A stretch of DNA of 44,021 bases from a virus: UHGV virus genome UHGV-0153635, one strand, 5' to 3'. A model generated the notes under the pieces. It saw nothing but the letters and a program-made list of their open reading frames with translations, was not told where the DNA came from and did not search any database. Below are positions 1-44,021 of this stretch, in pieces; position 1 is the first letter of the stretch; the number at the start of each line of letters is the position of its first letter. The translations under genes were made by a program, and so were the position numbers.

Positions 1-536
1 TCCGAGCCATACTTCTCCGAGACATACTGAACCTTGCGAGCGCTCAGCCAATCCTCGGTCAACACTGTCACCCCCGTGCTTAGCCATTCCCCAGCAGCTG
101 CGTACTGCGCGGGCTGCCCCATGAGCACCCATTTGGGAGACTGGTACTGATGCAGCGCCCTCGCCAGGTACGTGCCGTTCTGTAAATCCCATACTAACCT
201 CTTTAGTTGCTCTGAATAGTAAACTGCACCAGCCATTTCTGGCATCAGCCCTTTTGATACTAGGAATCCGTAAAGCTGCGCCTGCAATTCCGCGCTCGTC
301 TGGTGAATCTGTATTAGCTGTGCGGGTGCAGGCAGCACCCTAGGCAGCACTTCCGGCTGCACCAGGGATACATATTGTTTGCGCTCACTGAGCGACGTAT
401 GACACCTGTGACAATACATCTGCCACGTATCAGGTTTATTGTAAAGCACTGCGGCAGGGGTTCTACCGCAGCATCTGAACCTGGCGGCTTGCCCCACAGC
501 CAGGCGCTTGCATGCTTGTAGCCAGGGGGCGTCCAT
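1..536 (-). CDS. DNA primase (DnaG/Toprim-type), 5' portion; gene continues across the window boundary into 43790..44021
   Basis: ATG at 536..534 preceded by GGAGAG RBS, 2 nt after the stop of the upstream gene; open frame runs to position 1 with no stop; the split codon (positions 2,1 + 44021) is in frame with the C-terminal segment; translated N-terminus contains a Cys/His cluster (C-x12-C-H-R-C-H). Confidence 0.6.
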   Translation of the reverse strand, partial: MDAPWLQACKRLAVGQAARFRCCGRTPAAVLYNKPDTWQMYCHRCHTSLSERKQYVSLVQPEVLPRVLPAPAQLIQIHQTSAELQAQLYGFLVSKGLMPEMAGAVYYSEQLKRLVWDLQNGTYLARALHQYQSPKWVLMGQPAQYAAAGEWLSTGVTVLTEDWLSARKVQYVSEKYGS

Positions 537-538
537 AG

Positions 539-1012
539 TTACTCTCCGTAAGGGTGTGCAATGGCTGGGTTTAGCGTAGTCTTACGCCCCTGCTGCTTCT
601 CCTTACGTTTGATATCCATAGCCATGCGCGTCAGGTCATGTGCTAGCTGCAAGGCTGCGTCAGGTGCAAGGTAGTTGTAACTCGCGAAATCCGGGAGTAT
701 TGAACGTATCTCAACCTCGCCAAACTCATTAGGGAGGATGTCCAAGTACTGTGTCTTACTTGGCACTGTGTAGTAACGCGCACTCTCCGGCGCTGGCGGG
801 AGCGGGTCGTCTTGCTCTACTTGAGAGGCTGCCTTGTACAGATCAAAGCGTTCAGACAGCACCCAACTACCCATGCTAAGGTCTGTCTTAATATAATCAT
901 AACCGCACTCCCGCTCCGTCGCCACTACTTCGTACAACTGCCCCTGCTCAACACCGTTAGCCTCGTTATCCTGATTACCTACAACGATGTCACCCACTTT
1001 AAACTTAGTCAT
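539..1012 (-). CDS. hypothetical early protein (157 aa)
   Basis: ORF track; same strand and tight packing with neighbours. Confidence 0.55.
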   Translation of the reverse strand: MTKFKVGDIVVGNQDNEANGVEQGQLYEVVATERECGYDYIKTDLSMGSWVLSERFDLYKAASQVEQDDPLPPAPESARYYTVPSKTQYLDILPNEFGEVEIRSILPDFASYNYLAPDAALQLAHDLTRMAMDIKRKEKQQGRKTTLNPAIAHPYGE

Positions 1013-4901: not shown

Positions 4902-4903
4902 TT

Positions 4904-4955
4904 AAATGTCCTCAAATTAATTACCTATAGTATATAGCGTAGCGCCTATACGCTA
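4904..4955 (-). repeat. copy 1 of a duplicated ~45-bp upstream element (second copy 5555..5604)
   Basis: Shared core AAATGTCCTCAAATTAATTACC plus TATAG..AGCGTAGCG..TATA with hairpin potential, read on the plus strand in both copies. Confidence 0.5.
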
Positions 4956-5534
4956 AAACGGAAACTCTGAGTCGTCAAAGTGCACTAGCACTGTATCAGC
5001 AGTAGCTACAACCCCCGGTACAGTTCGCATAGCCTCAGCACGTTCCTGCTCTTGCAGTATAGAACGTATCGACATAACCTCAACCAGATACTGCAAGCCC
5101 CGCTCAGCCCTGCTAACAGCCCTCTCCGCACAGTACAGGAAATCCTCCCAGGCAACCGGGCAGTAACGCAGCTTCAGGCTCATAAGGTCCTGTACAGCGC
5201 TCAGGAGCATACCTCTCTGCACTGCATCTAGTCCCTGTATTACATCTATCCGGCTGTACAACTCCCTCTGCTTATCCTGTATAGCAGCAGCATCCAGAGC
5301 CTGCACTGTACCAATTAGCATAGGCTGTAACCCCCTGAGTCTGTCCAGTACTGGATTATCAGAATCCGCTAGCTCAACAGGCATTCCTAAGTGCCAGACC
5401 CTGGCTGTACCGGCATCACTACGAGGCTTATGCTGCTTCCTGGCTGGAGCAGGAACCTCACAGCCTAACTCCGTGTCCCAGTAGTAGTTCTGCTTCTTAC
5501 CGTCTACCCGGCGCTGCTTACGCAGTATCGTCAT
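4953..5534 (-). CDS. hypothetical protein (193 aa); leftmost gene in phage orientation
   Basis: ORF track; ATG 5534 with GAGGAGGG RBS. Confidence 0.55.
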   Translation of the reverse strand: MTILRKQRRVDGKKQNYYWDTELGCEVPAPARKQHKPRSDAGTARVWHLGMPVELADSDNPVLDRLRGLQPMLIGTVQALDAAAIQDKQRELYSRIDVIQGLDAVQRGMLLSAVQDLMSLKLRYCPVAWEDFLYCAERAVSRAERGLQYLVEVMSIRSILQEQERAEAMRTVPGVVATADTVLVHFDDSEFPF

Positions 5535-5554
5535 AGTACCCTCCTCAACATAGT

Positions 5555-5604
5555 AAATGTCCTCAAATTAATTACCCTCCTTATAGAGCGTAGCGAGTAT
5601 AAGG
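5555..5604 (-). repeat. copy 2 of the duplicated ~45-bp upstream element
   Basis: Same core as 4904..4955. Confidence 0.5.
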
Positions 5605-5632
5605 TTAGGTAACTCTGGTTAACTCTGAGATA

Positions 5633-5661
5633 ACTATAGCACTCTGTACCTTAACGTGCAA
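5633..5661 (-). promoter_or_regulatory. sigma70-type promoter candidate (TTGCAC - 17 bp - TATAGT) overlapping one copy of the conserved 12-mer
   Basis: Minus strand reads TTGCACgttaaggtacagagtgcTATAGT about 100 bp upstream of ATG 5534. Confidence 0.35.
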
Positions 5662-5689
5662 CCTCTGTAGTTAAAGCTGTGGCTAATCC

Positions 5690-5945
5690 TGTGCTATCTC
5701 CGGTCTATACCTGTGGAGTCTATGGCTATCCTTAGGCTATCACTGCGCTGCACAGAGAAGACGAAAAGAGGTAAGGCAGCGCCCACCTCCGCCACCACAC
5801 TAAGCACAGCCCAGAGCTATCACTCAGAGCCAACCAGAGCCACGCTAAGGCTATCACAGGGCTATCCCTATGCTATCCCATTGGCTATCCGGTAGAAGCG
5901 CTTAGAGAAGCTCCCAGAGCCTCGTAGAGGCCCCAGGCTATCCGC
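5690..5945. repeat. array of about nine GCTATC-core heptamer repeats (GGCTATC on plus, GATAGCC in phage orientation); candidate genome-terminus region
   Basis: Copies read at about 5693, 5724, 5735, 5816, 5849, 5860, 5870, 5883, 5937 in the only large intergenic gap between the last late gene and the first left-end gene. Confidence 0.55.
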
Positions 5946-6159
5946 TGGTAAGCACAGGCCCCCACCCCACCCCGGCCTTAGTTATGGCTGAGGCACCCCC
6001 TATGGGGGAACTGAGGGGCGTTGAGGGTGAGGGCCAGCCTCGCGTAAGTATAACATTTTTAGGGAGCGAGTATACACCTGCCCCAGTGACAATCCCATAC
6101 TAAGCCTGCCAGCTCTAGCAAGCCCAATGCACTGGCACTGAGCCTGCTCAGGGACCAAC

Positions 6160-7824
6160 CTAGCGCACAACGAACTTACCGAGGCTAATATCGTTAACCA
6201 GGGTAGCTACGATACTAGATAACTGCGTAGTAGTAAGGGTATTAACATCCCCACCGCGTAAGGTGGCGGCATTTGTAAACGGATACGCTTGCGGCTGCTT
6301 AGTATCGAAGAACTGATTCCCCTGCTCGTACCGGTAAGCTGGTGTAGTTGTATAAAGTATTCCGTTCGTAGTTACAGGAACAGAACAATTCACGATGTTT
6401 ACATGCGCAGCGAGACCGGCGCACTCAATAGGACGAGCAACAGTGCCGAACGGCTGAACACCTACCAGACGGTTTATGTTCAGGCTCTGTGCCGCCTGCG
6501 CATACAGATAAGAACTAGGAAGGCCGTTAACACCGCGAATATTCCAGTTATCTACTTCAATATGTCGGGCATTAATAATCTGGCAGATTGCTTGACCGTC
6601 TGCATCAGGATTTGCGCCAACAATACGCACATTCTTAATAGTGATGTCGGAAGTAGCTGTTGTGTTCGCCCCACAGTTAATCATAACAGCTTTAGAACCA
6701 GATTGTGTGCAGTGGATTGTCAACCCGTCAAACTCAATATCACCTAGATTTACTGTGTGAGAGGAGCCGGCCTGGCGTAAAAAGAACACAGCCCAATCCG
6801 TGTGGTTGGATATTAAGATATTACTAAAGCGCAGTCGTGTGACTTCTACCGGATAGAATCTGCATAAAATCCCCTGAGAGCAGTTTCGGATGAAGATGTT
6901 GTCGTAAGTGACATCACGTGAACCCTCAATAGCAATACCTGCATTACAACTTTCAATGTATAACCCGGTCACGCTGCCGTTGGAGAAGTTCGCGCGGAGG
7001 CCATGTGATTCACAGTTCTTGATGGTTACGCCGCTGATGTTTACACGCGTAATTGCAGTACCCCCACCAACGCCAGCCCCTAAATCGTCAGACTGAAGGC
7101 GCAACCCATTACCGCCGGAGCCATTAATGCTGACATCGTGAATCATCACGTTAAGTGTGCGACCTGGTTTGGATGAATCCACAAACACAGAAGATGCCCA
7201 AGTTGTTTGGGTGCGTACATGATGAATGTGCGCTTCGGTGGCATTACCAACAACAATCGCCATACCCTGCCGGTTACTTCCGTCTGGATTCTGTATTTGT
7301 CCGCGACCGCAGTCATGAGAATAAAGATTATCAGCAATTACCCAGCGTCCGTGCTCCATGGCTACGTTATTCTGCCACGCTCCCTGTAACTCGCACCCTG
7401 AAAGCTCAAGAGTACCAGCGGATTGCATAGCCAGCCCAACCCCTGGGGTAAAGGACGCATCCTGTCGATAAAAATCAAACAGGAAATTTCCAACGATACG
7501 AATATCATAGGGGGTGTAATCAAACTCCTGATTTGCTTCGTTCCAGGTACGAGGTGAACGCAACACAAACTGGCGAGAGTCTACGATTACTTTAGGTAGT
7601 TGCGTACGTATCCTTACATCTGTTGGGATAATAAATAACCCCTCTAAAGTTACCGGGGTGTAGGCCACCTCTATATTACCACCCGTAGATAGTGCCGCCT
7701 GTAATTCAGAGTCACTACGAACAACCTTCCAACCACTGAGTAGTCCGTCCAGCGCCGCGCCTACTGTAGTATCATTATAATCCACCTGGTATGCATCTAC
7801 GTGGATGTTTTCAACAAGGGCCAT
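6160..7824 (-). CDS. tailspike protein, right-handed beta-helix (pectate-lyase-like) polysaccharide depolymerase candidate
   Basis: 554 aa with recurring beta-helix-like motifs (IKNCESHG, IESCNAGIAIEGS, IRNCSQGI, IVNCSVP) and Gly/Asn/Ser/Thr-rich content; ATG 7824 with AAGGAG RBS; last gene of the late operon. Confidence 0.65.
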   Translation of the reverse strand: MALVENIHVDAYQVDYNDTTVGAALDGLLSGWKVVRSDSELQAALSTGGNIEVAYTPVTLEGLFIIPTDVRIRTQLPKVIVDSRQFVLRSPRTWNEANQEFDYTPYDIRIVGNFLFDFYRQDASFTPGVGLAMQSAGTLELSGCELQGAWQNNVAMEHGRWVIADNLYSHDCGRGQIQNPDGSNRQGMAIVVGNATEAHIHHVRTQTTWASSVFVDSSKPGRTLNVMIHDVSINGSGGNGLRLQSDDLGAGVGGGTAITRVNISGVTIKNCESHGLRANFSNGSVTGLYIESCNAGIAIEGSRDVTYDNIFIRNCSQGILCRFYPVEVTRLRFSNILISNHTDWAVFFLRQAGSSHTVNLGDIEFDGLTIHCTQSGSKAVMINCGANTTATSDITIKNVRIVGANPDADGQAICQIINARHIEVDNWNIRGVNGLPSSYLYAQAAQSLNINRLVGVQPFGTVARPIECAGLAAHVNIVNCSVPVTTNGILYTTTPAYRYEQGNQFFDTKQPQAYPFTNAATLRGGDVNTLTTTQLSSIVATLVNDISLGKFVVR

Positions 7825-9193: not shown

Positions 9194-11044
9194 TTAGTAC
9201 CTTCCTTTTCTTCTAGTTAAACCCCGGTCAATCCGGGCCTGTGTACCACGGCTGCGCGGGGCAACCATACTTTGCTTCCAGTCCATAGGGTTATCCATGA
9301 ACTTACGAGCTTGCTTCTGCTGTTCCTTCTCAGCAGATACCTTCTCGTCCTCAACCAGGAAGCCGTTGAGTTCTGCTACGAGCATAGCTACTGCGTCGGC
9401 ACGGTCGTCCTTTGCTAAGCTACCACGGTCGTAGGTAATGCTTTGGAGCTGTTGGAACGCGCTATATAACCAGCGCTTATCGCGGCTATAGGCCATGCAG
9501 CTCTGAATGTCGTCTGTAAGCGCCCTAGAATGCACTACAAGGCGATGCCTGCGCGTCACTGGGGAGATGGTATCGATGATACGCCTCTCCTTCTGTGAGG
9601 TGTTGTAGCCCCCTCTAACGCCTATACCGGGAATCTTACGCTCGCGCAGTCGGTTCATGAACAGCATCTCTACTGTACCATGCCCCATGTTGCTCTCGAT
9701 GAACAGGTCCGAGATACCCAGCTCAATAGCCAAGTCAATGAGCTTGTCGATGTTCTCGGTGCTGATACCTCCCTGGAACCCGCCTACAGAGAACAGGTGC
9801 AAGTACGAGTTCGCTGCCCCGCCCGCTGCATAAGACACCTCATCCCCACCACAACCAGCAGGGTCAATCACCATGAGCTTGTGCTGGTACGGCAGCATCA
9901 GCTCACCATAGCTAGCTGGCTGGTACAGCAACTGCCCACGGATACCTTCGTGTTCCTCCGTATAGAGGTAGCGCTTGTCCGCAATATAGCTTAGACGGTC
10001 CGGGGCTGCATCATGCGAACCCGAGTAGACCATGCAATCGCTGAGCTTAATCCTTGTTCTCATTGCGTCAGACATAGTAGTGTCGAGCATGTACTGCAAC
10101 TGGAAGCCCTCTGGACCAAAGTCCAGCTCCTTCTCAATCAGAGCATCCTCGTCGTAACGCCCCTTGTCTGCGCACTCCCCTAAGGTTCCGTCTAATCCGA
10201 ATCCGGTACGTTTATACCCGCGCTCAATAAGCTCACAGATATAAGGAGCAAGTGTATCGCCATAACGTTCCTGCATTTCCTCGTTTGGTATACGACCAGG
10301 CCATACGCGCACTTCAAAGCCACGCCCCGGCAAGGTCTTGTAGATACTATCCTTAGTCTGAGGTGTTCCCAGATACAGCGTATCCCCGTGCGTACAGATA
10401 GCGGCGAAGTCCTTGGATATCATGAGCAACTGCTCACGCATCGTCTGGGTCAGGCCATTCTTCGTAGTCTCAATATCATCCGGGATAAGCAGGTCCGCAC
10501 GCTTACCCTGCAACTGCGCAGTAATACCTACGCACGCAATGCTAGCGGACTTATCCAGAGGCTTCAGGTCGCAGTGCACGTCATAACCCTCGTAAGAGGT
10601 GCGGTCGCCACGGGCCGGGTCAGCCTTGAGGTAGCACAGCAAAGGCCACGTTTCAATCATACGAATGACCAGCGTAGCCACCTCAGACGCCTGCTTCTCA
10701 CCACCAGATACAATCAGGATACGACAGCTCTGGTCCTGTATCAGACGCCACACCGCATACAGTGCAGCCAGGGTAGACTTAGCCTCACCACGCTGAGCAG
10801 CGACCATGCGCTTGCGCGGACCTTTCTGCATGAACTCTGCTATATCGGCCTGCATCTCCGTAAGGTTAAATCCGAGGAACTTCATACCTAAGTATGCGAA
10901 CTCCCGGAAATCCTTCAGAGTCACAGCCATCATCAGCGCTACTTCCTCACGCTGGTCCTTCGGGATAGTTCTTGGGCTATCATTCATTACCGTTGTACGA
11001 GCACTGATGAGCTTGAGTCTGCTCAGTGTAGTTTGGCTTATCAT
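9194..11044 (-). CDS. terminase large subunit (T7 gp19-like)
   Basis: 616 aa, size and position after the small subunit; global resemblance to T7-type terminases. Confidence 0.85.
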   Translation of the reverse strand: MISQTTLSRLKLISARTTVMNDSPRTIPKDQREEVALMMAVTLKDFREFAYLGMKFLGFNLTEMQADIAEFMQKGPRKRMVAAQRGEAKSTLAALYAVWRLIQDQSCRILIVSGGEKQASEVATLVIRMIETWPLLCYLKADPARGDRTSYEGYDVHCDLKPLDKSASIACVGITAQLQGKRADLLIPDDIETTKNGLTQTMREQLLMISKDFAAICTHGDTLYLGTPQTKDSIYKTLPGRGFEVRVWPGRIPNEEMQERYGDTLAPYICELIERGYKRTGFGLDGTLGECADKGRYDEDALIEKELDFGPEGFQLQYMLDTTMSDAMRTRIKLSDCMVYSGSHDAAPDRLSYIADKRYLYTEEHEGIRGQLLYQPASYGELMLPYQHKLMVIDPAGCGGDEVSYAAGGAANSYLHLFSVGGFQGGISTENIDKLIDLAIELGISDLFIESNMGHGTVEMLFMNRLRERKIPGIGVRGGYNTSQKERRIIDTISPVTRRHRLVVHSRALTDDIQSCMAYSRDKRWLYSAFQQLQSITYDRGSLAKDDRADAVAMLVAELNGFLVEDEKVSAEKEQQKQARKFMDNPMDWKQSMVAPRSRGTQARIDRGLTRRKGRY

Positions 11045-29297: not shown

Positions 29298-31739
29298 TCA
29301 ACAAAAGAAGAATGGGGATTCAAGTACTTGCGTTAAGTCCAGAGTGCCTTTCTGAGGCATCTCTAAACCTTCCAGGTCTGCGCCGCACTCTACCGCTGCG
29401 TCAGCCAGCGTTTGCAACGGGTCGTGCTCGGTGTACAAGCGCAGGAACTGCTCACGAATAGCTTTATGCATTGCGTCAACATCACAGGCATGCGTAGCCA
29501 GCGAGTCATGGATAGGCAGGATATCACCGTCGAAGGCGTTCAGTACCATCATCAGGTGCGTACTATCCAGCGAGTGCACGAAGTTCGGAGCGATACCAGA
29601 CTTAGCCTTACGGCGATTGTTCTGCTCGTAGTTACGGTTGTAACTGAGCAGGTACGTCAGGTTCATACTCTGAACTTTAACCCGGCACTCATCAGACTCT
29701 GTGTAGCGGTTAATGACCAACCCACCCAGCGGAGTCTTCCACTGTAAGTGCCGCTTAGTCGGGACACGTCCTGTAATCTGCTGAGCAAAGCGCATAGCCT
29801 TGGCAGCCGCAGGGTTAGCCTCCTCTACAGCAGCGCGCATACGCGGAGCTAAGTACCCTGCGAGCTTAAACAGGCTATACTCCTCAGTAGGCTCATAACC
29901 CTCATCCTTAGCACCCAGTAGGATGTACTCAGAGCAACTGCGTACAGTCGCAGAATACACATAGGTCATACAGGGGCGCTTGGTCATACTCCTAGTAATT
30001 GGGTTCTCTCTCCAGTACGTAGCCTGCACTACGTGCTCTGGGTCAGTGAGGTCCATGATTACCTTGGAGTCCGTGCGCTCCTTCACGTCCATGTACATAT
30101 CCGCTTTCTCTGCGTTACCCTCCCAGAACAGGTTCGTTAAGCGCCCACCGATTGGGTCCCGGAGCATTGCGCTGTAGTGCTGAGAACCCGAGTTTGTAGC
30201 GTCCATAGCGACTGGTACGTGCGATACATACTCTCGCGGCTCCACAGAGCTAAGAGCATTAACAAGCTCGACTGCTGCTGCCAGGAAGCACCATGGACTA
30301 TCTGCCTGTTTAAAAGCGTCCGAATTAAATGGGTCATCTGCCAGGCGTCTAATCGCTTCATAGTTCGCATCAGCCCAAGCTGCACGGGCTTCGAATAGGG
30401 CTTTGTCATAACCAAAGCAAGTGGCGACATGCACCTTGAGCCAAAATAATCCACGCTCCCCAAGCGGTTTTCCGCGACCAAATTCAAGCAAGGCCTTCTG
30501 CAAATCAGAACCTTGTGGGTGCAGGCTGGACTTGAAGTACAGGCGGTATCGCCAATCCACACAAGTCGGGAAGTACAGCTCTGTTTCATCTTTGAACTCC
30601 TCGCACATACTTACGGTTGTAACCAGGGCGCGAAGCTGCCCTACGCGAGTACGCTCATCCGCGTACCACTGGCGCATATGCATCTTCCACTCCTGGAACT
30701 CCTCAAGCTCACGCTCAGTGTACTCTTCCTTAGGCACACCATCCAAGCGCCACTCTGGTTTAGGGGCTGGGTTGCTGCTAGGCATGCCTGTGCTTACTCC
30801 CAAGGCACGCGCCTGCTGCACCAGCTTCAGCATAGTCTTATTAATACGGTACGGCACTTCCTGAGCACGATTCAGAGCCTGCTGTAACTGCGGAGCCTGC
30901 TTGAACGCCTCGGCTACTTCACGCTTCATGCTTCGCTGAATCTGTGAGTTGCTGTAAGTACCGCGTCTATCAATGTCCGTGAGGTATCCACCGGAGAACA
31001 TCGTATCATGCGGCTGCGGCGGGATAAGCATAGGTGGCTTCAGCTGCACTGTATCGGCGTGCTCTACCAGCTCAGACAGTACCTGCTCCAGCGCTGGGGC
31101 TGGGGTGAGATACTGCAACTGCGTCTTATCGCGCTTGCTCCACACGAACAGCCCGGTTTCCCACACCGCCTGCATCAAGAGCTTGCCCACGGAGATGCAC
31201 TGTGAGTTCGACCAAGGCTCATGCTGGTAATGCACGTTCTCAGCAGAGGCACGCAAGGTCTTCAGGATATGCGAGGGGCTGGTGGTATTACGTTCCTTCA
31301 GGTACTCATGCACCCGGTTCATATATGCCGGGGCTACAGCCTGGAGCTGCACAGCCAGTAGCTCCGCCTGAACCTGACGGCCCAGCGCAGAGAGCACGGA
31401 CTGTGCTGAGCTGGCACTGTTAGTGCCTACGTTAGAGAATAGCGAATCGAAGCACTTCGTCAAGGACATTACGGCCAGGACATCCGTAGGGATTAAGCGC
31501 AGGAACGCGCGGTACTTAGCGCCTACACCAGCAGTCTTCTCCTGCTTAGTGCTGTTGATGCCTGCGCATACAGTGTCGTATGCAGCCGCAATCATACGCT
31601 GCACTGGCGGCAAGGTGCTGAGGCTACCAGAGTCCAGGGCTTTCTGCACCAGGCTCTTGCTGCGCTCCAGGCTGCGTGTACGGTACTGCTGCTCTAGCTG
31701 GAGCTGTCGCTCTGTGCGTTCTTCTAAGGTTTCTTTCAA
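29298..31739 (-). CDS. single-subunit DNA-directed RNA polymerase (T7 RNAP family)
   Basis: 813 aa; SGSQHYSAMLRD, IAPNFVHSLDSTH, C-terminal ESPFFFC align with T7 RNAP motifs; TTG start with GAGGA RBS. Confidence 0.95.
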   Translation of the reverse strand: MKETLEERTERQLQLEQQYRTRSLERSKSLVQKALDSGSLSTLPPVQRMIAAAYDTVCAGINSTKQEKTAGVGAKYRAFLRLIPTDVLAVMSLTKCFDSLFSNVGTNSASSAQSVLSALGRQVQAELLAVQLQAVAPAYMNRVHEYLKERNTTSPSHILKTLRASAENVHYQHEPWSNSQCISVGKLLMQAVWETGLFVWSKRDKTQLQYLTPAPALEQVLSELVEHADTVQLKPPMLIPPQPHDTMFSGGYLTDIDRRGTYSNSQIQRSMKREVAEAFKQAPQLQQALNRAQEVPYRINKTMLKLVQQARALGVSTGMPSSNPAPKPEWRLDGVPKEEYTERELEEFQEWKMHMRQWYADERTRVGQLRALVTTVSMCEEFKDETELYFPTCVDWRYRLYFKSSLHPQGSDLQKALLEFGRGKPLGERGLFWLKVHVATCFGYDKALFEARAAWADANYEAIRRLADDPFNSDAFKQADSPWCFLAAAVELVNALSSVEPREYVSHVPVAMDATNSGSQHYSAMLRDPIGGRLTNLFWEGNAEKADMYMDVKERTDSKVIMDLTDPEHVVQATYWRENPITRSMTKRPCMTYVYSATVRSCSEYILLGAKDEGYEPTEEYSLFKLAGYLAPRMRAAVEEANPAAAKAMRFAQQITGRVPTKRHLQWKTPLGGLVINRYTESDECRVKVQSMNLTYLLSYNRNYEQNNRRKAKSGIAPNFVHSLDSTHLMMVLNAFDGDILPIHDSLATHACDVDAMHKAIREQFLRLYTEHDPLQTLADAAVECGADLEGLEMPQKGTLDLTQVLESPFFFC

Positions 31740-41030: not shown

Positions 41031-41519
41031 TTATAGTCCGTGATTATTGTGGTACCCGGCTGCTTCAGCCGCCAACCTCCGGCACTCTATGGCTTGCTCG
41101 ATATTACCGAAGGACCCTAACTGTTTATTTCCAATAGTTGCTATCCAACGATTACCTTTCTTGTATACCCCGACGTAACCGCTGCGATTGCTTTTGTATA
41201 AAGACTTGTTCTGCATGTTTTGCTCTGGTAGCACTGCTCTTAAATTATCTGGAGTATCATCTAACCTATTATGGTTTATGTGGTCTACATGATAACCTGC
41301 CCGCAGCGGCCCATTATGCATCTCATATACTATCAAACTTCTCTTATATAACTTGTTGTGTAGCTTAATGTACCAGTACCCGCACACCTTGTTTAAGGTG
41401 CCCGCTTCGGAACCTGCTGCACAATTTAGACGGCTACGCCCGCGTCCGCTGCGAACTTCATGCTTCCAATAAAGCTTGCCATCTCTGTATGTAAACCAAG
41501 TACCCCAATTCATTTCCAC
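41031..41519 (-). CDS. HNH homing endonuclease (paralog family member 4), AT-rich
   Basis: HVDHINHNRLDDTPDNLR...EQNMQN; visibly lower GC than the flanking polymerase and helicase genes. Confidence 0.8.
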   Translation of the reverse strand: MEMNWGTWFTYRDGKLYWKHEVRSGRGRSRLNCAAGSEAGTLNKVCGYWYIKLHNKLYKRSLIVYEMHNGPLRAGYHVDHINHNRLDDTPDNLRAVLPEQNMQNKSLYKSNRSGYVGVYKKGNRWIATIGNKQLGSFGNIEQAIECRRLAAEAAGYHNNHGL

Positions 41520-41925: not shown

Positions 41926-42132
41926 TTACTCTACTACGAAGTAGATAGCTTGCATTCGCTCAAGGTCGTCGGTGTGTGCGTCCCCTGTATCGAAGTACTC
42001 ATTGCTATTCTCATCGTAAGCCAGAATCTCTCCGCCAACGTCGTGGAAGGAGGTGCTCCACACTTGCCCGGCGTGCTCCCATACCGCTACAAAGTTTCCT
42101 GACTCTGGACGAGTTTTTACTTGCTTAATCAT
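41926..42132 (-). CDS. hypothetical protein (68 aa)
   Basis: ORF track; ATG overlaps helicase stop. Confidence 0.45.
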   Translation of the reverse strand: MIKQVKTRPESGNFVAVWEHAGQVWSTSFHDVGGEILAYDENSNEYFDTGDAHTDDLERMQAIYFVVE

Positions 42133-43406
42133 GCTAATTTCCCCGCGTTGAACTGGCAGCGTCCACCATCGAACTCTACCTGGAATTGTAAGTAGCTCTG
42201 ACTACCGGACTTGCCGAGCTTGTTCTTTGGCGTGCTAATGCCGCGAACATCCAGCATATCCGGCCTTGTGCTGGGGTCTAACCTGCCCATCATGATGCAC
42301 AGGTCCAGCGCGCCCTGTACACCAATCTTGCTCTGCTTCATCGCTGTCAGCGGTGGGTACAGCATATCGTAACCTTCGACTGATAGCTGCATAGTGCCTA
42401 TGATGATGCAGTCGTACTCGCAGCCCAGTACTCGCAGCTCCTGCCATTTCGCTTCCAGCCCCTGGTGCTCTGACTCTGCTGTACCGCCCCGGATATTCGC
42501 AACCATATCCACAACCAGCACAGCCGGGCGCATCTCCTCCATCAATGTAGCTATCTGAGGCATAGTGATGCTGTGCGCATCCTTAACTCTGATGCGGTCC
42601 CAGCTACCTACCTTAGCCAGGTACTTCTCTGCGAACTTACCTTGCTTATGCTGCTCTACAATCTCATGCAATGTCAGCCCTGTAGCTGCCTGGTAGATAC
42701 GCGGTACAGTACGCTTAGCTAAGCTTTCATTGACGAGCCATAGTACAGGGCGGTCAGCATAGCTTTCCTCTTTTCGTGCCATCTGCTCGACCAGGCCCAC
42801 GACAGTTGCAGCCAGTAAAGAGGTTTTCCCTGCATCGACGGGTGCCGCAACAGCAACACAGTCCCCACCGCGGAGACCACGGATATTGTCAGCAAGCTCA
42901 GGAAATACATTAAGTTTAAGGCCGCCGCTTTCATCAGTAGCCGCAAGTATATCATCTACACCCCCATCTTCCCAGTTCAACAAAGAGTCCTGCGCTGTCG
43001 CTACGCTGCTGTACTTGCGCTCTAACTGCTTGGCCTCTGCGATAAAGTCTATCTCTGCACCATCCTGGTACTGCTGCACCAGCGCCGCCATCTCGCCGGA
43101 GTAGGCCATCTCATTCAGAGTACGCACTACCCCGGCTGCTGCCTCGTCTGGAACCTGCTGCACTTGCTTGAGCATGTGCTTCAGAATATCCATCTGCTCT
43201 TTCTGTAGATGCTGCCCGCGCATCCCCAGGAGCGTCTGCATAGCGTCCCACTGCACAGCGTTGCTGTCGGTGTAGGTTCCGTAGTACAGGTCCACCCAGC
43301 CCAGCAGCGCTACTGTATCTACAGCCAGCATGGACTTCGGTATCTGCTCTCGCAAGCGTTGCCAGACCTTGCGTTCACACATCGCCTTTACGATTAAGTA
43401 ATCCAA
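42129..43406 (-). CDS. replicative DNA helicase (DnaB/T7 gp4 helicase-domain family)
   Basis: Walker A APVDAGKTS; 425 aa; TTG start with AAGGAG RBS. Confidence 0.85.
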   Translation of the reverse strand: MDYLIVKAMCERKVWQRLREQIPKSMLAVDTVALLGWVDLYYGTYTDSNAVQWDAMQTLLGMRGQHLQKEQMDILKHMLKQVQQVPDEAAAGVVRTLNEMAYSGEMAALVQQYQDGAEIDFIAEAKQLERKYSSVATAQDSLLNWEDGGVDDILAATDESGGLKLNVFPELADNIRGLRGGDCVAVAAPVDAGKTSLLAATVVGLVEQMARKEESYADRPVLWLVNESLAKRTVPRIYQAATGLTLHEIVEQHKQGKFAEKYLAKVGSWDRIRVKDAHSITMPQIATLMEEMRPAVLVVDMVANIRGGTAESEHQGLEAKWQELRVLGCEYDCIIIGTMQLSVEGYDMLYPPLTAMKQSKIGVQGALDLCIMMGRLDPSTRPDMLDVRGISTPKNKLGKSGSQSYLQFQVEFDGGRCQFNAGKLA

Positions 43407-43409
43407 GCC

Positions 43410-43793
43410 TTACTCCTTCTCGTTTAAGTATTCCTGCATCTTCTTCTCCAGAACCTTCAGAGAACTTCCGGCCAGCTTCTGAACATCCGGGTTTTTAGCT
43501 ACCGCCTCAACGCCACTTGCTGCTGCCATGGTGTAAATAGTCTTGGTAGTGGGCACAAAGGGGTACATCAGCAACAGCACTGCCCATACTACAGCCGCAT
43601 AGCGCACTACTTTAAAAGAGGATTTACGCGCGGACTGTTCTGCCTCATAGCTGTTTGTTAGCATGTCCGCTAGCATTAGTATAATCATAGGGGAGAGTAC
43701 CAAAGCAAACCCTCCCAGCACCAACACAATCTCCAGCGTTGACTTAACACCGCCAACAGTACCTGCCAAGTAGATAAAAGTAGCAAAGTTCAT
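43410..43793 (-). CDS. membrane protein (127 aa) between primase and helicase
   Basis: ORF track; several hydrophobic helices. Confidence 0.5.
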   Translation of the reverse strand: MNFATFIYLAGTVGGVKSTLEIVLVLGGFALVLSPMIILMLADMLTNSYEAEQSARKSSFKVVRYAAVVWAVLLLMYPFVPTTKTIYTMAAASGVEAVAKNPDVQKLAGSSLKVLEKKMQEYLNEKE

Positions 43794-44021
43794 TTTAAAC
43801 CCTCCAGAATCTCTGAGATATTACATGCCTTAGGGTCGTCCCTAAGCACCCGGTCGTGCACTGGCAGGAACGGCTTCAGGGTACGCTGTATCGTCTTAGC
43901 CCCGGCCCAGCCAGCTTCGTCATTGTCCAGCATCAACAGCACTGGCTTACCAAGCTGAATCAGCTTCGCTTTCAGCGGCAGCGATAATCTGGTCCCAAGT
44001 AAGGCTACCGCCGTAACAGGT
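43790..44021 (-). CDS. DNA primase, 3' portion with Toprim DxD motif; continues from 1..536
   Basis: Translation entering from the window edge gives ...VLLMLDNDEAGWAGAKTIQRT...ILEGLK, then TGA overlapping the next ATG (ATGA). Confidence 0.6.
   Translation of the reverse strand, partial: PVTAVALLGTRLSLPLKAKLIQLGKPVLLMLDNDEAGWAGAKTIQRTLKPFLPVHDRVLRDDPKACNISEILEGLK

What the first reader, a model, noticed from the sequence alone, without database searches (positions are those of the whole stretch)
1..536. One primase gene is split across the two ends of the window: the sequence is a circularly permuted whole genome
The minus-strand ORF starting at ATG 536 has no stop before position 1. The split codon formed by positions 2,1 and 44021 (GAA) is in frame with the segment 44021..43790, which encodes a Toprim-type LMLDNDEAG motif and ends in a stop overlapping the next start. 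Joined, the two pieces make a 255-codon primase. This means the record is an arbitrarily opened circular assembly (terminal repeat probably collapsed), so the true physical ends lie inside the window rather than at its edges.
Basis: seen in the sequence. Interest (0 to 1): 0.6.

Follow-up and report, generated by a model that had tools for sequence, protein, structure and literature searches.

The report
Phage primase split by record opening
The window is one complete genome of a T7-like (Koutsourovirus) phage whose assembled circle was cut open inside its DNA primase gene, which is an ordinary assembly artefact and matters only for correct annotation and for placing the genome ends.

Summary
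The minus-strand ORF from ATG 536 runs off position 1. Codon 179 is bases 2, 1 and 44021 (GAA). The frame continues to TGA at 43792..43790, giving 255 aa.

The joined protein is a stand-alone T7 gp4-like/DnaG-type primase:
- PHROG_47 "DNA primase", E=1.4e-26.
- Invariant zinc-ribbon cysteines, TOPRIM Glu and DxD.
- A model of a 94%-identical homologue best matches the T7 primase fragment 1NUI.

763 phage records match at least 80% of it as a single place. Six related sequences align without a gap across the window junction.

The window is a new Koutsourovirus (Autographiviridae), about 86-90% nucleotide identity to its nearest relatives. Rotated, it is collinear end to end with phiKDA1.

phiKDA1's annotated 267-bp direct terminal repeat maps once, to 5777..6032, with both flanks contiguous. 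The repeat is therefore collapsed. The inferred physical ends are near 6032 and 5777, giving a virion DNA of about 44.28 kb.

The record is rotated. The phage is not biologically permuted, because its terminase is T7-type. The exact end positions rest on homology only, since no reads were available.

This is ordinary and of low interest.

The parts
1..536 (-). 5' part of the primase gene: codons 1-178 plus the first two bases of codon 179. It holds the zinc-ribbon cysteines C22/C23, C42 and C45 (window 473..402) and the TOPRIM glutamate E161 (window 56..54).
   Evidence: invariant columns in a 37-sequence alignment; PHROG_47 match covering residues 2-254.
43790..44021 (-). 3' part of the primase gene: the last base of codon 179, codons 180-255 and the TGA stop. 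It holds the TOPRIM DxD (D211, D213) within LMLDNDEAG (window 43936..43910).
   Evidence: Pfam Toprim_2 match to residues 173-228 at 21.7 bits, just under the 22.1-bit cut-off; profile match to the DnaG RNA-polymerase domain 4e2k.
5777..6032 (-). Single, collapsed copy of the direct terminal repeat (256 bp). The inferred left physical end is at 6032 and the inferred right physical end at 5777, reading the genome on the minus strand.
   Evidence: phiKDA1's annotated 267-bp left and right direct repeats both map here, and both unique flanks are contiguous. Self-BLAST finds no second copy. The boundaries are by homology only.
42129..43406 (-). Separate DnaB-like replicative helicase (425 aa), the partner of the stand-alone primase.
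   Evidence: phrog_19 E=1.8e-64; Pfam AAA_25 and DnaB_C.
43410..43793 (-). 127-aa hydrophobic ORF lying between the primase and the helicase. Its start overlaps the primase stop.
   Evidence: phrog_3878, function unknown. It is absent from close relatives at DNA level. The best phage hit is 33% identity to Citrobacter phage CVT22.
539..1012 (-). 157-aa ORF immediately upstream of the primase. The same 157-aa gene lies upstream of the primase in relatives.
9194..11044 (-). T7-type terminase large subunit, which implies fixed ends with short direct terminal repeats rather than headful permutation.
   Evidence: phrog_38 E=8.8e-113; PF22530 Terminase-T7_RNaseH-like, 104.6 bits.
29298..31739 (-). 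Single-subunit phage RNA polymerase, the hallmark of Autographiviridae.
   Evidence: phrog_414 E=1.3e-267.

Best explanation
The window is one unit-length genome (44,021 bp) of a Koutsourovirus-like autographivirus, written as the reverse complement of the conventional orientation. The assembler closed the linear, terminally repetitive virion DNA into a circle by merging its two direct terminal repeats. The circle was then opened at an arbitrary point, which happens to fall in codon 179 of the DNA primase gene.

The primase is a 255-aa stand-alone T7 gp4-like enzyme with an N-terminal Cys4 zinc ribbon followed by a TOPRIM RNA-polymerase domain. By inference, it makes RNA primers for lagging-strand synthesis together with the separately encoded DnaB-like helicase two genes downstream.

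The real molecule most likely starts at about window 6032 and runs down the minus strand through position 1 and 44021. It most likely ends at about 5777, after a second copy of the 256-bp repeat, for about 44,277 bp in total.

Shown here: the ORF join, the primase homology and fold, collinearity, and a single copy of the repeat homologue. Inferred: the exact repeat boundaries, the duplication of the repeat in virion DNA, and enzymatic activity.
For: - ORF join: a 255-aa in-frame product.
- Primase family: PHROG_47 E=1.4e-26. Invariant C22, C23, C42, C45, E161, D162, D211 and D213 in 37 homologues. The profile hits only DnaG primases at the top of the PDB list (4e2k, E=0.0017).
- Fold: an AF2 model of the 94%-identical homologue P0001 (pLDDT 90.7) best matches the T7 primase fragment 1nui over its full length (E=3.9e-08).
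- Contiguity: single-piece tblastn hits in 763 records. There is no gap at the junction in protein or DNA alignments. The gene is internal on Logan contigs with the same neighbours. A junction 27-mer lies inside an IMG/VR contig.
- Whole genome: the rotated window is collinear with phiKDA1 from 1 to 43,804. Nearest relatives show 86-90% nucleotide identity over 68-81% of the query.
- Ends: phiKDA1's annotated direct repeats map once, to 5777..6032. The terminase is T7-type.
Against: - No reads were available, so the repeat's duplication and its exact boundaries are not measured.
- Entb_48's record ends overlap on a shorter stretch (about window 5836..6013), so boundaries may differ between relatives or records.
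- I could not trace the experimental basis of phiKDA1's repeat annotation.
- Pfam Toprim_2 scores 21.7 bits, just under its 22.1 gathering cut-off.
- A single-sequence search of PDB found nothing.
Confidence: 0.93

Rival explanations
1. The phage packages by a headful mechanism and its virion DNA is truly circularly permuted, so there are no fixed physical ends anywhere in the window.
For: The record closes into a circle. Several public relatives are also deposited with arbitrary openings.
Against: The terminase large subunit carries the T7-type RNaseH-like domain. The close relative phiKDA1 is deposited as linear DNA with 267-bp direct repeats. The homologous stretch sits in the non-coding gap between the last late gene and the first early genes, as in T7-like phages.
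Confidence: 0.03
2. The window is a piece of something larger or truly circular, such as a prophage, a plasmid-like replicon or a concatemer unit, and is not a virion genome unit.
For: Nothing specific. Only that no read or provenance data are available.
Against: Its length equals one genome unit of the genus. Every phiKDA1 module is present once and in order. There is no flanking host DNA, and no integrase appeared among the ORFs examined. All genes lie on one strand, as in lytic Autographiviridae.
Confidence: 0.02
3. The in-frame join is a coincidence or a chimeric mis-assembly, and the two ends are not neighbours in the real DNA.
For: None found.
Against: Full-length single-piece matches at E=4e-146. 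Ungapped DNA alignments across the junction in six independent sequences, including 48 identical bases around it in OQ884031.1. A junction 27-mer found in IMG/VR.
Confidence: 0.01

Closest known systems
Enterobacter phage phiKDA1 (Koutsourovirus KDA1; JQ267518 / NC_027980) and relatives SDFMU_Pec, SDFMU_EhYP, KKP 3828 and Entb_48
   Same: Same gene order from end to end. The region 20001-44021 shows 86-90% nucleotide identity over 68-81% of the query. The primase is 78-93% identical. The terminal-repeat sequence is homologous.
   Different: Identity to every listed record is 90% or lower, so this is likely a distinct species (the ICTV 95% criterion is from my own knowledge). The early-gene content differs. 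The tailspike module differs. An extra 127-aa ORF lies between the primase and the helicase. The record is rotated and carries one repeat copy instead of two.
Primase domain of bacteriophage T7 gp4 (PDB 1NUI)
   Same: Zinc ribbon plus TOPRIM RNA-polymerase domain. It is the best structural match over the full length. The catalytic Glu and DxD are conserved.
   Different: Only about 18% identity. It is not fused to the helicase: the helicase is a separate gene, as in phiKMV/KP34-like phages.
Bacterial DnaG primase RNA-polymerase domain (e.g. S. aureus 4E2K, Aquifex 2AU3)
   Same: Profile-level sequence match across the TOPRIM core and a fold match.
   Different: Much shorter (255 aa). It lacks the C-terminal DnaB-binding domain of DnaG.
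Assembly artefact of phages with direct terminal repeats: the repeat is collapsed and the circle opened arbitrarily (the problem PhageTerm addresses; PMC5557969, PMC5923482)
   Same: One repeat copy with both flanks joined, and a record start inside a gene. Public relative OQ884031.1 shows the same artefact in the same gene.
   Different: No leftover assembler overlap remains at the window ends. OQ884031.1 keeps 127 nt of overlap and OQ884028.1 keeps 55 nt.

Membership tests
T7 gp4-type / DnaG-type (TOPRIM) DNA primase | N-terminal Cys4 zinc-ribbon domain | tested here: met
   C22/C23, C42 and C45 are invariant in 37 homologues. Short beta-strands at residues 18-53 in the model. The full-length alignment to 1nui includes the zinc-binding domain.
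T7 gp4-type / DnaG-type (TOPRIM) DNA primase | TOPRIM core with conserved Glu and DxD | tested here: met
   E161, D211 and D213 are invariant and align with DnaG's TOPRIM motifs in 4e2k. Pfam Toprim_2 is borderline at 21.7 bits against a 22.1-bit cut-off, although several homologues carry a precomputed PF13155 hit.
T7 gp4-type / DnaG-type (TOPRIM) DNA primase | Fold of a solved primase | tested here: met
   Foldseek top hits are 1nui_A (E=3.9e-08, prob 1.00, TM 0.52), 5ikn, 2au3 and 5guj. The model is of the 94%-identical P0001.
T7 gp4 bifunctional primase-helicase | Primase covalently fused to a DnaB-family helicase | tested here: not met
   The primase stops at 43790. The helicase is a separate 425-aa ORF at 42129..43406, with a 127-aa ORF between them. 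It works like the gp4 primase half but is not a gp4-type fusion.
T7 gp4-type / DnaG-type (TOPRIM) DNA primase | Template-directed oligoribonucleotide synthesis | not testable with these tools
   Requires a biochemical assay.
Autographiviridae, genus Koutsourovirus | Single-subunit RNA polymerase, with gene order and nucleotide similarity matching genus members | tested here: met
   phrog_414 E=1.3e-267. Collinear with phiKDA1. 86-90% identity to five records, four of which NCBI classifies as Koutsourovirus (Entb_48 is listed only as 'Viruses').
Genome with short direct terminal repeats (T7-like packaging) | T7-type terminase large subunit | tested here: met
   PF22530, 104.6 bits against a 27-bit cut-off.
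Genome with short direct terminal repeats (T7-like packaging) | The same sequence present at both ends of virion DNA | not testable with these tools
   Only one copy is in the window. Homology to phiKDA1's annotated repeats supports the feature, but reads or run-off sequencing are needed.
Headful-packaged, circularly permuted genome | pac-type (P22/T4-like) terminase and no relative with fixed ends | tested here: not met
   The terminase is T7-type and phiKDA1 has annotated fixed repeats.

The most novel reading that the evidence does not exclude
The non-coding stretch that holds the collapsed repeat may carry the concatemer-processing and packaging signals of this genus. It contains a roughly 40-nt element just upstream of the left repeat boundary that is conserved in all four relatives aligned there, a cluster of 9 GATAGC hexamers, and a hairpin with a T-run on the right boundary. 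These would be analogous to T7's terminal short-repeat arrays and its promoter-dependent end processing, which would make the ends of Koutsourovirus genomes predictable from sequence alone.
Probability: 0.25. Interest if true: 0.25.

Novelty: new member of a known kind. Interest (0 to 1): 0.08.

Why it matters
The consequences are practical, not conceptual.

- A gene caller run on this record as it stands will miss or truncate the primase. This happened in the public relative OQ884031.1, where no primase CDS is annotated.
- The record misstates the genome ends and length by one repeat copy.
- Rotating the record to start at about 6032 on the reverse complement and appending the repeat would give a correct record of about 44.28 kb. 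That record would be suitable for comparative genomics, taxonomy (probably a new Koutsourovirus species) or synthetic rebooting.
- Nothing here challenges current understanding of primases or of phage packaging.

Tried and rejected
- A single-sequence phmmer search of the joined protein against PDB found nothing. A 37-sequence profile was needed.
I modelled the 94%-identical P0001 instead.
- An exact 41-mer across the junction has no match in IMG/VR. A 27-mer found one contig and none in JGI metagenome contigs.
- I checked whether the window is the 'EM1' elephant-faeces phage that cites phiKDA1 (PMC9596486). It is not: that genome is 40,868 bp and its RNA polymerase is 71% identical to phiKDA1's.
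- A literature search for Koutsourovirus terminal repeats found nothing, so the basis of phiKDA1's repeat annotation is unverified.
- The sigma-70 consensus scan found no promoter in 5400..6300, so I do not claim that the conserved element upstream of the repeat is a host promoter.
- I looked for a residual assembler overlap between the window ends and for a second repeat copy. Neither exists.

Full report
**The observation**

Reading the minus strand, an ORF begins at ATG 536..534, two bases after the TAA of the preceding 157-aa ORF (539..1012). It has no stop before position 1. The window begins TC and ends in T, so the complement of positions 2, 1 and 44021 reads GAA. Translation of the joined ends continues in frame through 44020..43793 to TGA at 43792..43790, which overlaps the ATG of the next ORF (43410..43793) as ATGA. 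The product is 255 aa. Glu179 is the split codon, and LMLDNDEAG is residues 208-216 (window 43936..43910).

**Whether the join is real**

- tblastn of the joined protein against 50,697 phage records found 772 records. In 763 of them a single place covers at least 80% of the query. The best are Salmonella phage KKP 3828 (86.5% identity, residues 1-255, one piece, E=4e-146), Enterobacter phage SDFMU_EhYP (93.3%) and phiKDA1 (78.5%, annotated 'putative DNA primase').
- In a protein alignment the only indels lie around residues 150-155, about 25 residues before the junction. Around Glu179 the relatives read ...S(Q/V)PVTA... without a gap.
- At DNA level a 2-kb query centred on the junction aligns straight through position 1000|1001 in four phage records. 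A Logan contig and an IMG/VR contig do the same. In SDFMU_EhYP 48 consecutive bases around the junction are identical.
- An exact 27-mer over the junction lies inside IMGVR_UViG_3300045988_016375.
- The 5.8-billion-protein collection holds more than 100 full-length homologues of 255-310 aa (best 94%). On their contigs the gene is internal. The 157-aa ORF is upstream and a DnaB-like helicase is downstream.

Chance or chimerism is excluded.

**What the protein is**

- PHROG_47 'DNA primase' matches residues 2-254 at E=1.4e-26.
- Pfam Toprim_2 matches residues 173-228 at 21.7 bits, just below its 22.1-bit gathering score.
- In an alignment of 37 homologues down to about 49-50% identity, these residues are invariant: C22, C23, C42 and C45 (a Cys4 zinc ribbon), E161-D162 (the TOPRIM glutamate in VLTEDWLS), and D211 and D213 (the TOPRIM DxD).
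- A profile of that alignment hits DnaG primase RNA-polymerase domains at the top of the PDB list (S. aureus 4e2k E=0.0017, then B. subtilis, Aquifex and E. coli DnaG). The Glu and DxD columns align. The single sequence alone found nothing.
- The tool would not accept the joined sequence for structure prediction, so I modelled the 94%-identical P0001. Mean pLDDT is 90.7.
- Foldseek against PDB puts the T7 gp4 primase fragment 1NUI first, over the whole length (E=3.9e-08, prob 1.00). Other T7 gp4 structures and Aquifex and Bacillus DnaG follow.

So the protein is a T7 gp4-like primase with a zinc-binding domain and an RNA-polymerase domain. Unlike gp4 it is not fused to its helicase. The helicase is a separate 425-aa DnaB-like ORF at 42129..43406 (phrog_19 E=1.8e-64; Pfam AAA_25 and DnaB_C). 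This is the arrangement annotated in phiKDA1 and its relatives. The window break falls between the TOPRIM Glu (window 56..54) and the DxD (43927..43919), so neither half alone would be recognisable as a complete catalytic domain.

**What the window is**

All long ORFs lie on the minus strand. They include:
- a single-subunit RNA polymerase (phrog_414 E=1.3e-267);
- a family-A DNA polymerase;
- portal, major capsid and tail tubular B proteins;
- a terminase large subunit;
- a tailspike.

Megablast places the window in the genus Koutsourovirus (Autographiviridae, Slopekvirinae). Window 20001-44021 shows 86-90% identity over 68-81% of the query to SDFMU_Pec, SDFMU_EhYP, KKP 3828, phiKDA1 and Entb_48. 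The early region is more mosaic. No record is closer, so this is probably a new species of a known genus. The 95% species criterion is from my own knowledge of ICTV practice.

**Where the true ends are**

phiKDA1 is deposited as a linear 43,804-bp genome with annotated 267-bp left and right direct repeats, which are identical to each other.

- The left repeat plus its early-gene flank aligns to window 6032..5637.
- The right repeat plus 30 bases of its tailspike-side flank aligns to 6062..5779.
- In a multiple alignment the repeat boundaries correspond to CCTCACCCTCAACG... starting at window 6032 and ...GGAGGTGGGCGCTG ending at 5777. This is 256 bp, and each boundary string occurs once.
- Self-BLAST finds no second copy anywhere in the window.

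The window therefore holds one copy of the repeat, with the sequence that precedes the right copy on one side and the sequence that follows the left copy on the other. This is the signature of a repeat collapsed during assembly.

When the window is reverse-complemented, rotated to start at 6032 and given a second repeat copy, it is 44,277 bp. It is then collinear with phiKDA1 from base 1 to base 43,802, with offsets under 1 kb. One aligned segment (rotated 5489-6190) runs through the old window junction at 6032|6033.

The terminase large subunit has the T7-type RNaseH-like nuclease domain (PF22530, 104.6 bits). This fits packaging of unit-length DNA with short direct repeats rather than headful packaging. 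The record is therefore permuted, but the virion DNA is not.

**Limits**

- No reads were available, so the duplication of the repeat and its exact limits are inferred.
- I could not find a paper documenting how phiKDA1's repeats were determined.
- The record of Entb_48 has ends that overlap on a shorter stretch (about window 5836..6013) and are preceded by about 19 unmatched bases. Either boundaries vary or that record is also imperfect.
- I put high confidence on 'the ends lie in the 5.5-6.2 kb non-coding gap' and moderate confidence on the exact coordinates.

**Comparison with what is known**

Collapse of direct terminal repeats and arbitrary opening of the resulting circle is a well-described assembly artefact. 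It is the reason tools such as PhageTerm exist (PMC5557969). Correcting assembly artefacts caused by direct terminal repeats is listed as a standard step for a correct phage genome sequence (PMC5923482).

A public relative shows the same thing in the same gene. OQ884031.1 (SDFMU_EhYP) starts at primase residue 30 or so, keeps a 127-nt exact overlap between its ends, and has no primase CDS annotated. OQ884028.1 keeps a 55-nt overlap.

The finding is therefore correct, useful for curation, and biologically ordinary.

Noticed in passing
window 43410..43793 (-): A 127-aa hydrophobic ORF (apparently multi-pass membrane, judged by eye) sits between the primase and the helicase, with an ATGA overlap on the primase stop. 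None of the close relatives has it at DNA level. Their alignments skip this 370-bp stretch and carry other small ORFs or none there. The best phage hits are only 27-33% identical, in unrelated phages (Citrobacter CVT22, Acinetobacter AP22-like, a Vibrio phage). It matches phrog_3878, function unknown, and has no Pfam hit. It looks like a laterally acquired accessory gene in a variable slot.
   Followed up: partly
window 6160..7824 (-): The last late gene is a 554-aa tailspike. It differs from phiKDA1's. About 1.43 kb of its DNA is 79-80% identical to tail spike/fibre genes of unrelated phages (Shigella phage MK-13, 158 kb; N4-like E. coli phage G7C). This points to exchange of a receptor-binding module and hints at an E. 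coli/Shigella-type O-antigen host (phrog_12242).
   Followed up: partly
L005/L006 (OQ884031.1) and L009/L010 (OQ884028.1): Two public 'complete genome' records of close relatives carry assembly artefacts. SDFMU_EhYP is opened inside the primase gene, has a 127-nt exact overlap between its ends, and has no primase annotated. SDFMU_Pec has a 55-nt exact end overlap. These sizes match common assembler k-mer lengths.
   Followed up: yes
window 5698..5942 (-): Nine of the 21 minus-strand GATAGC hexamers in the whole 44-kb window fall within 245 bp, inside and just beyond the terminal-repeat homologue. The plus strand has none there. This is reminiscent of the short repeat arrays at T7-like genome ends.
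   Followed up: partly
window ~6039..6078 (-) and 5767..5790 (-): A roughly 40-nt element (GGTGTATACTCGCTCCCTAAAAATGTTATACTTACGCGAG) lies immediately upstream of the left repeat boundary. It is conserved in phiKDA1, Entb_48 and SDFMU_Pec. A hairpin followed by a T-run straddles the right repeat boundary. They may be packaging or processing signals or transcription signals. No sigma-70 consensus was found in 5400..6300.
   Followed up: partly
window 4903..4969 and 5554..5617: This is the only internal repeat found by self-BLAST: a 67-bp direct repeat at 78% identity, in the early region upstream of the first ORFs. It may be a pair of repeated early promoters or leader sequences.
   Followed up: no
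window 41031..41519 (-): An HNH_3 homing-endonuclease ORF (162 aa) lies between the helicase and the DNA polymerase. The same position is occupied in a Logan relative. phiKDA1 carries several HNH genes at partly different sites, which is typical mobile-endonuclease turnover.
   Followed up: no
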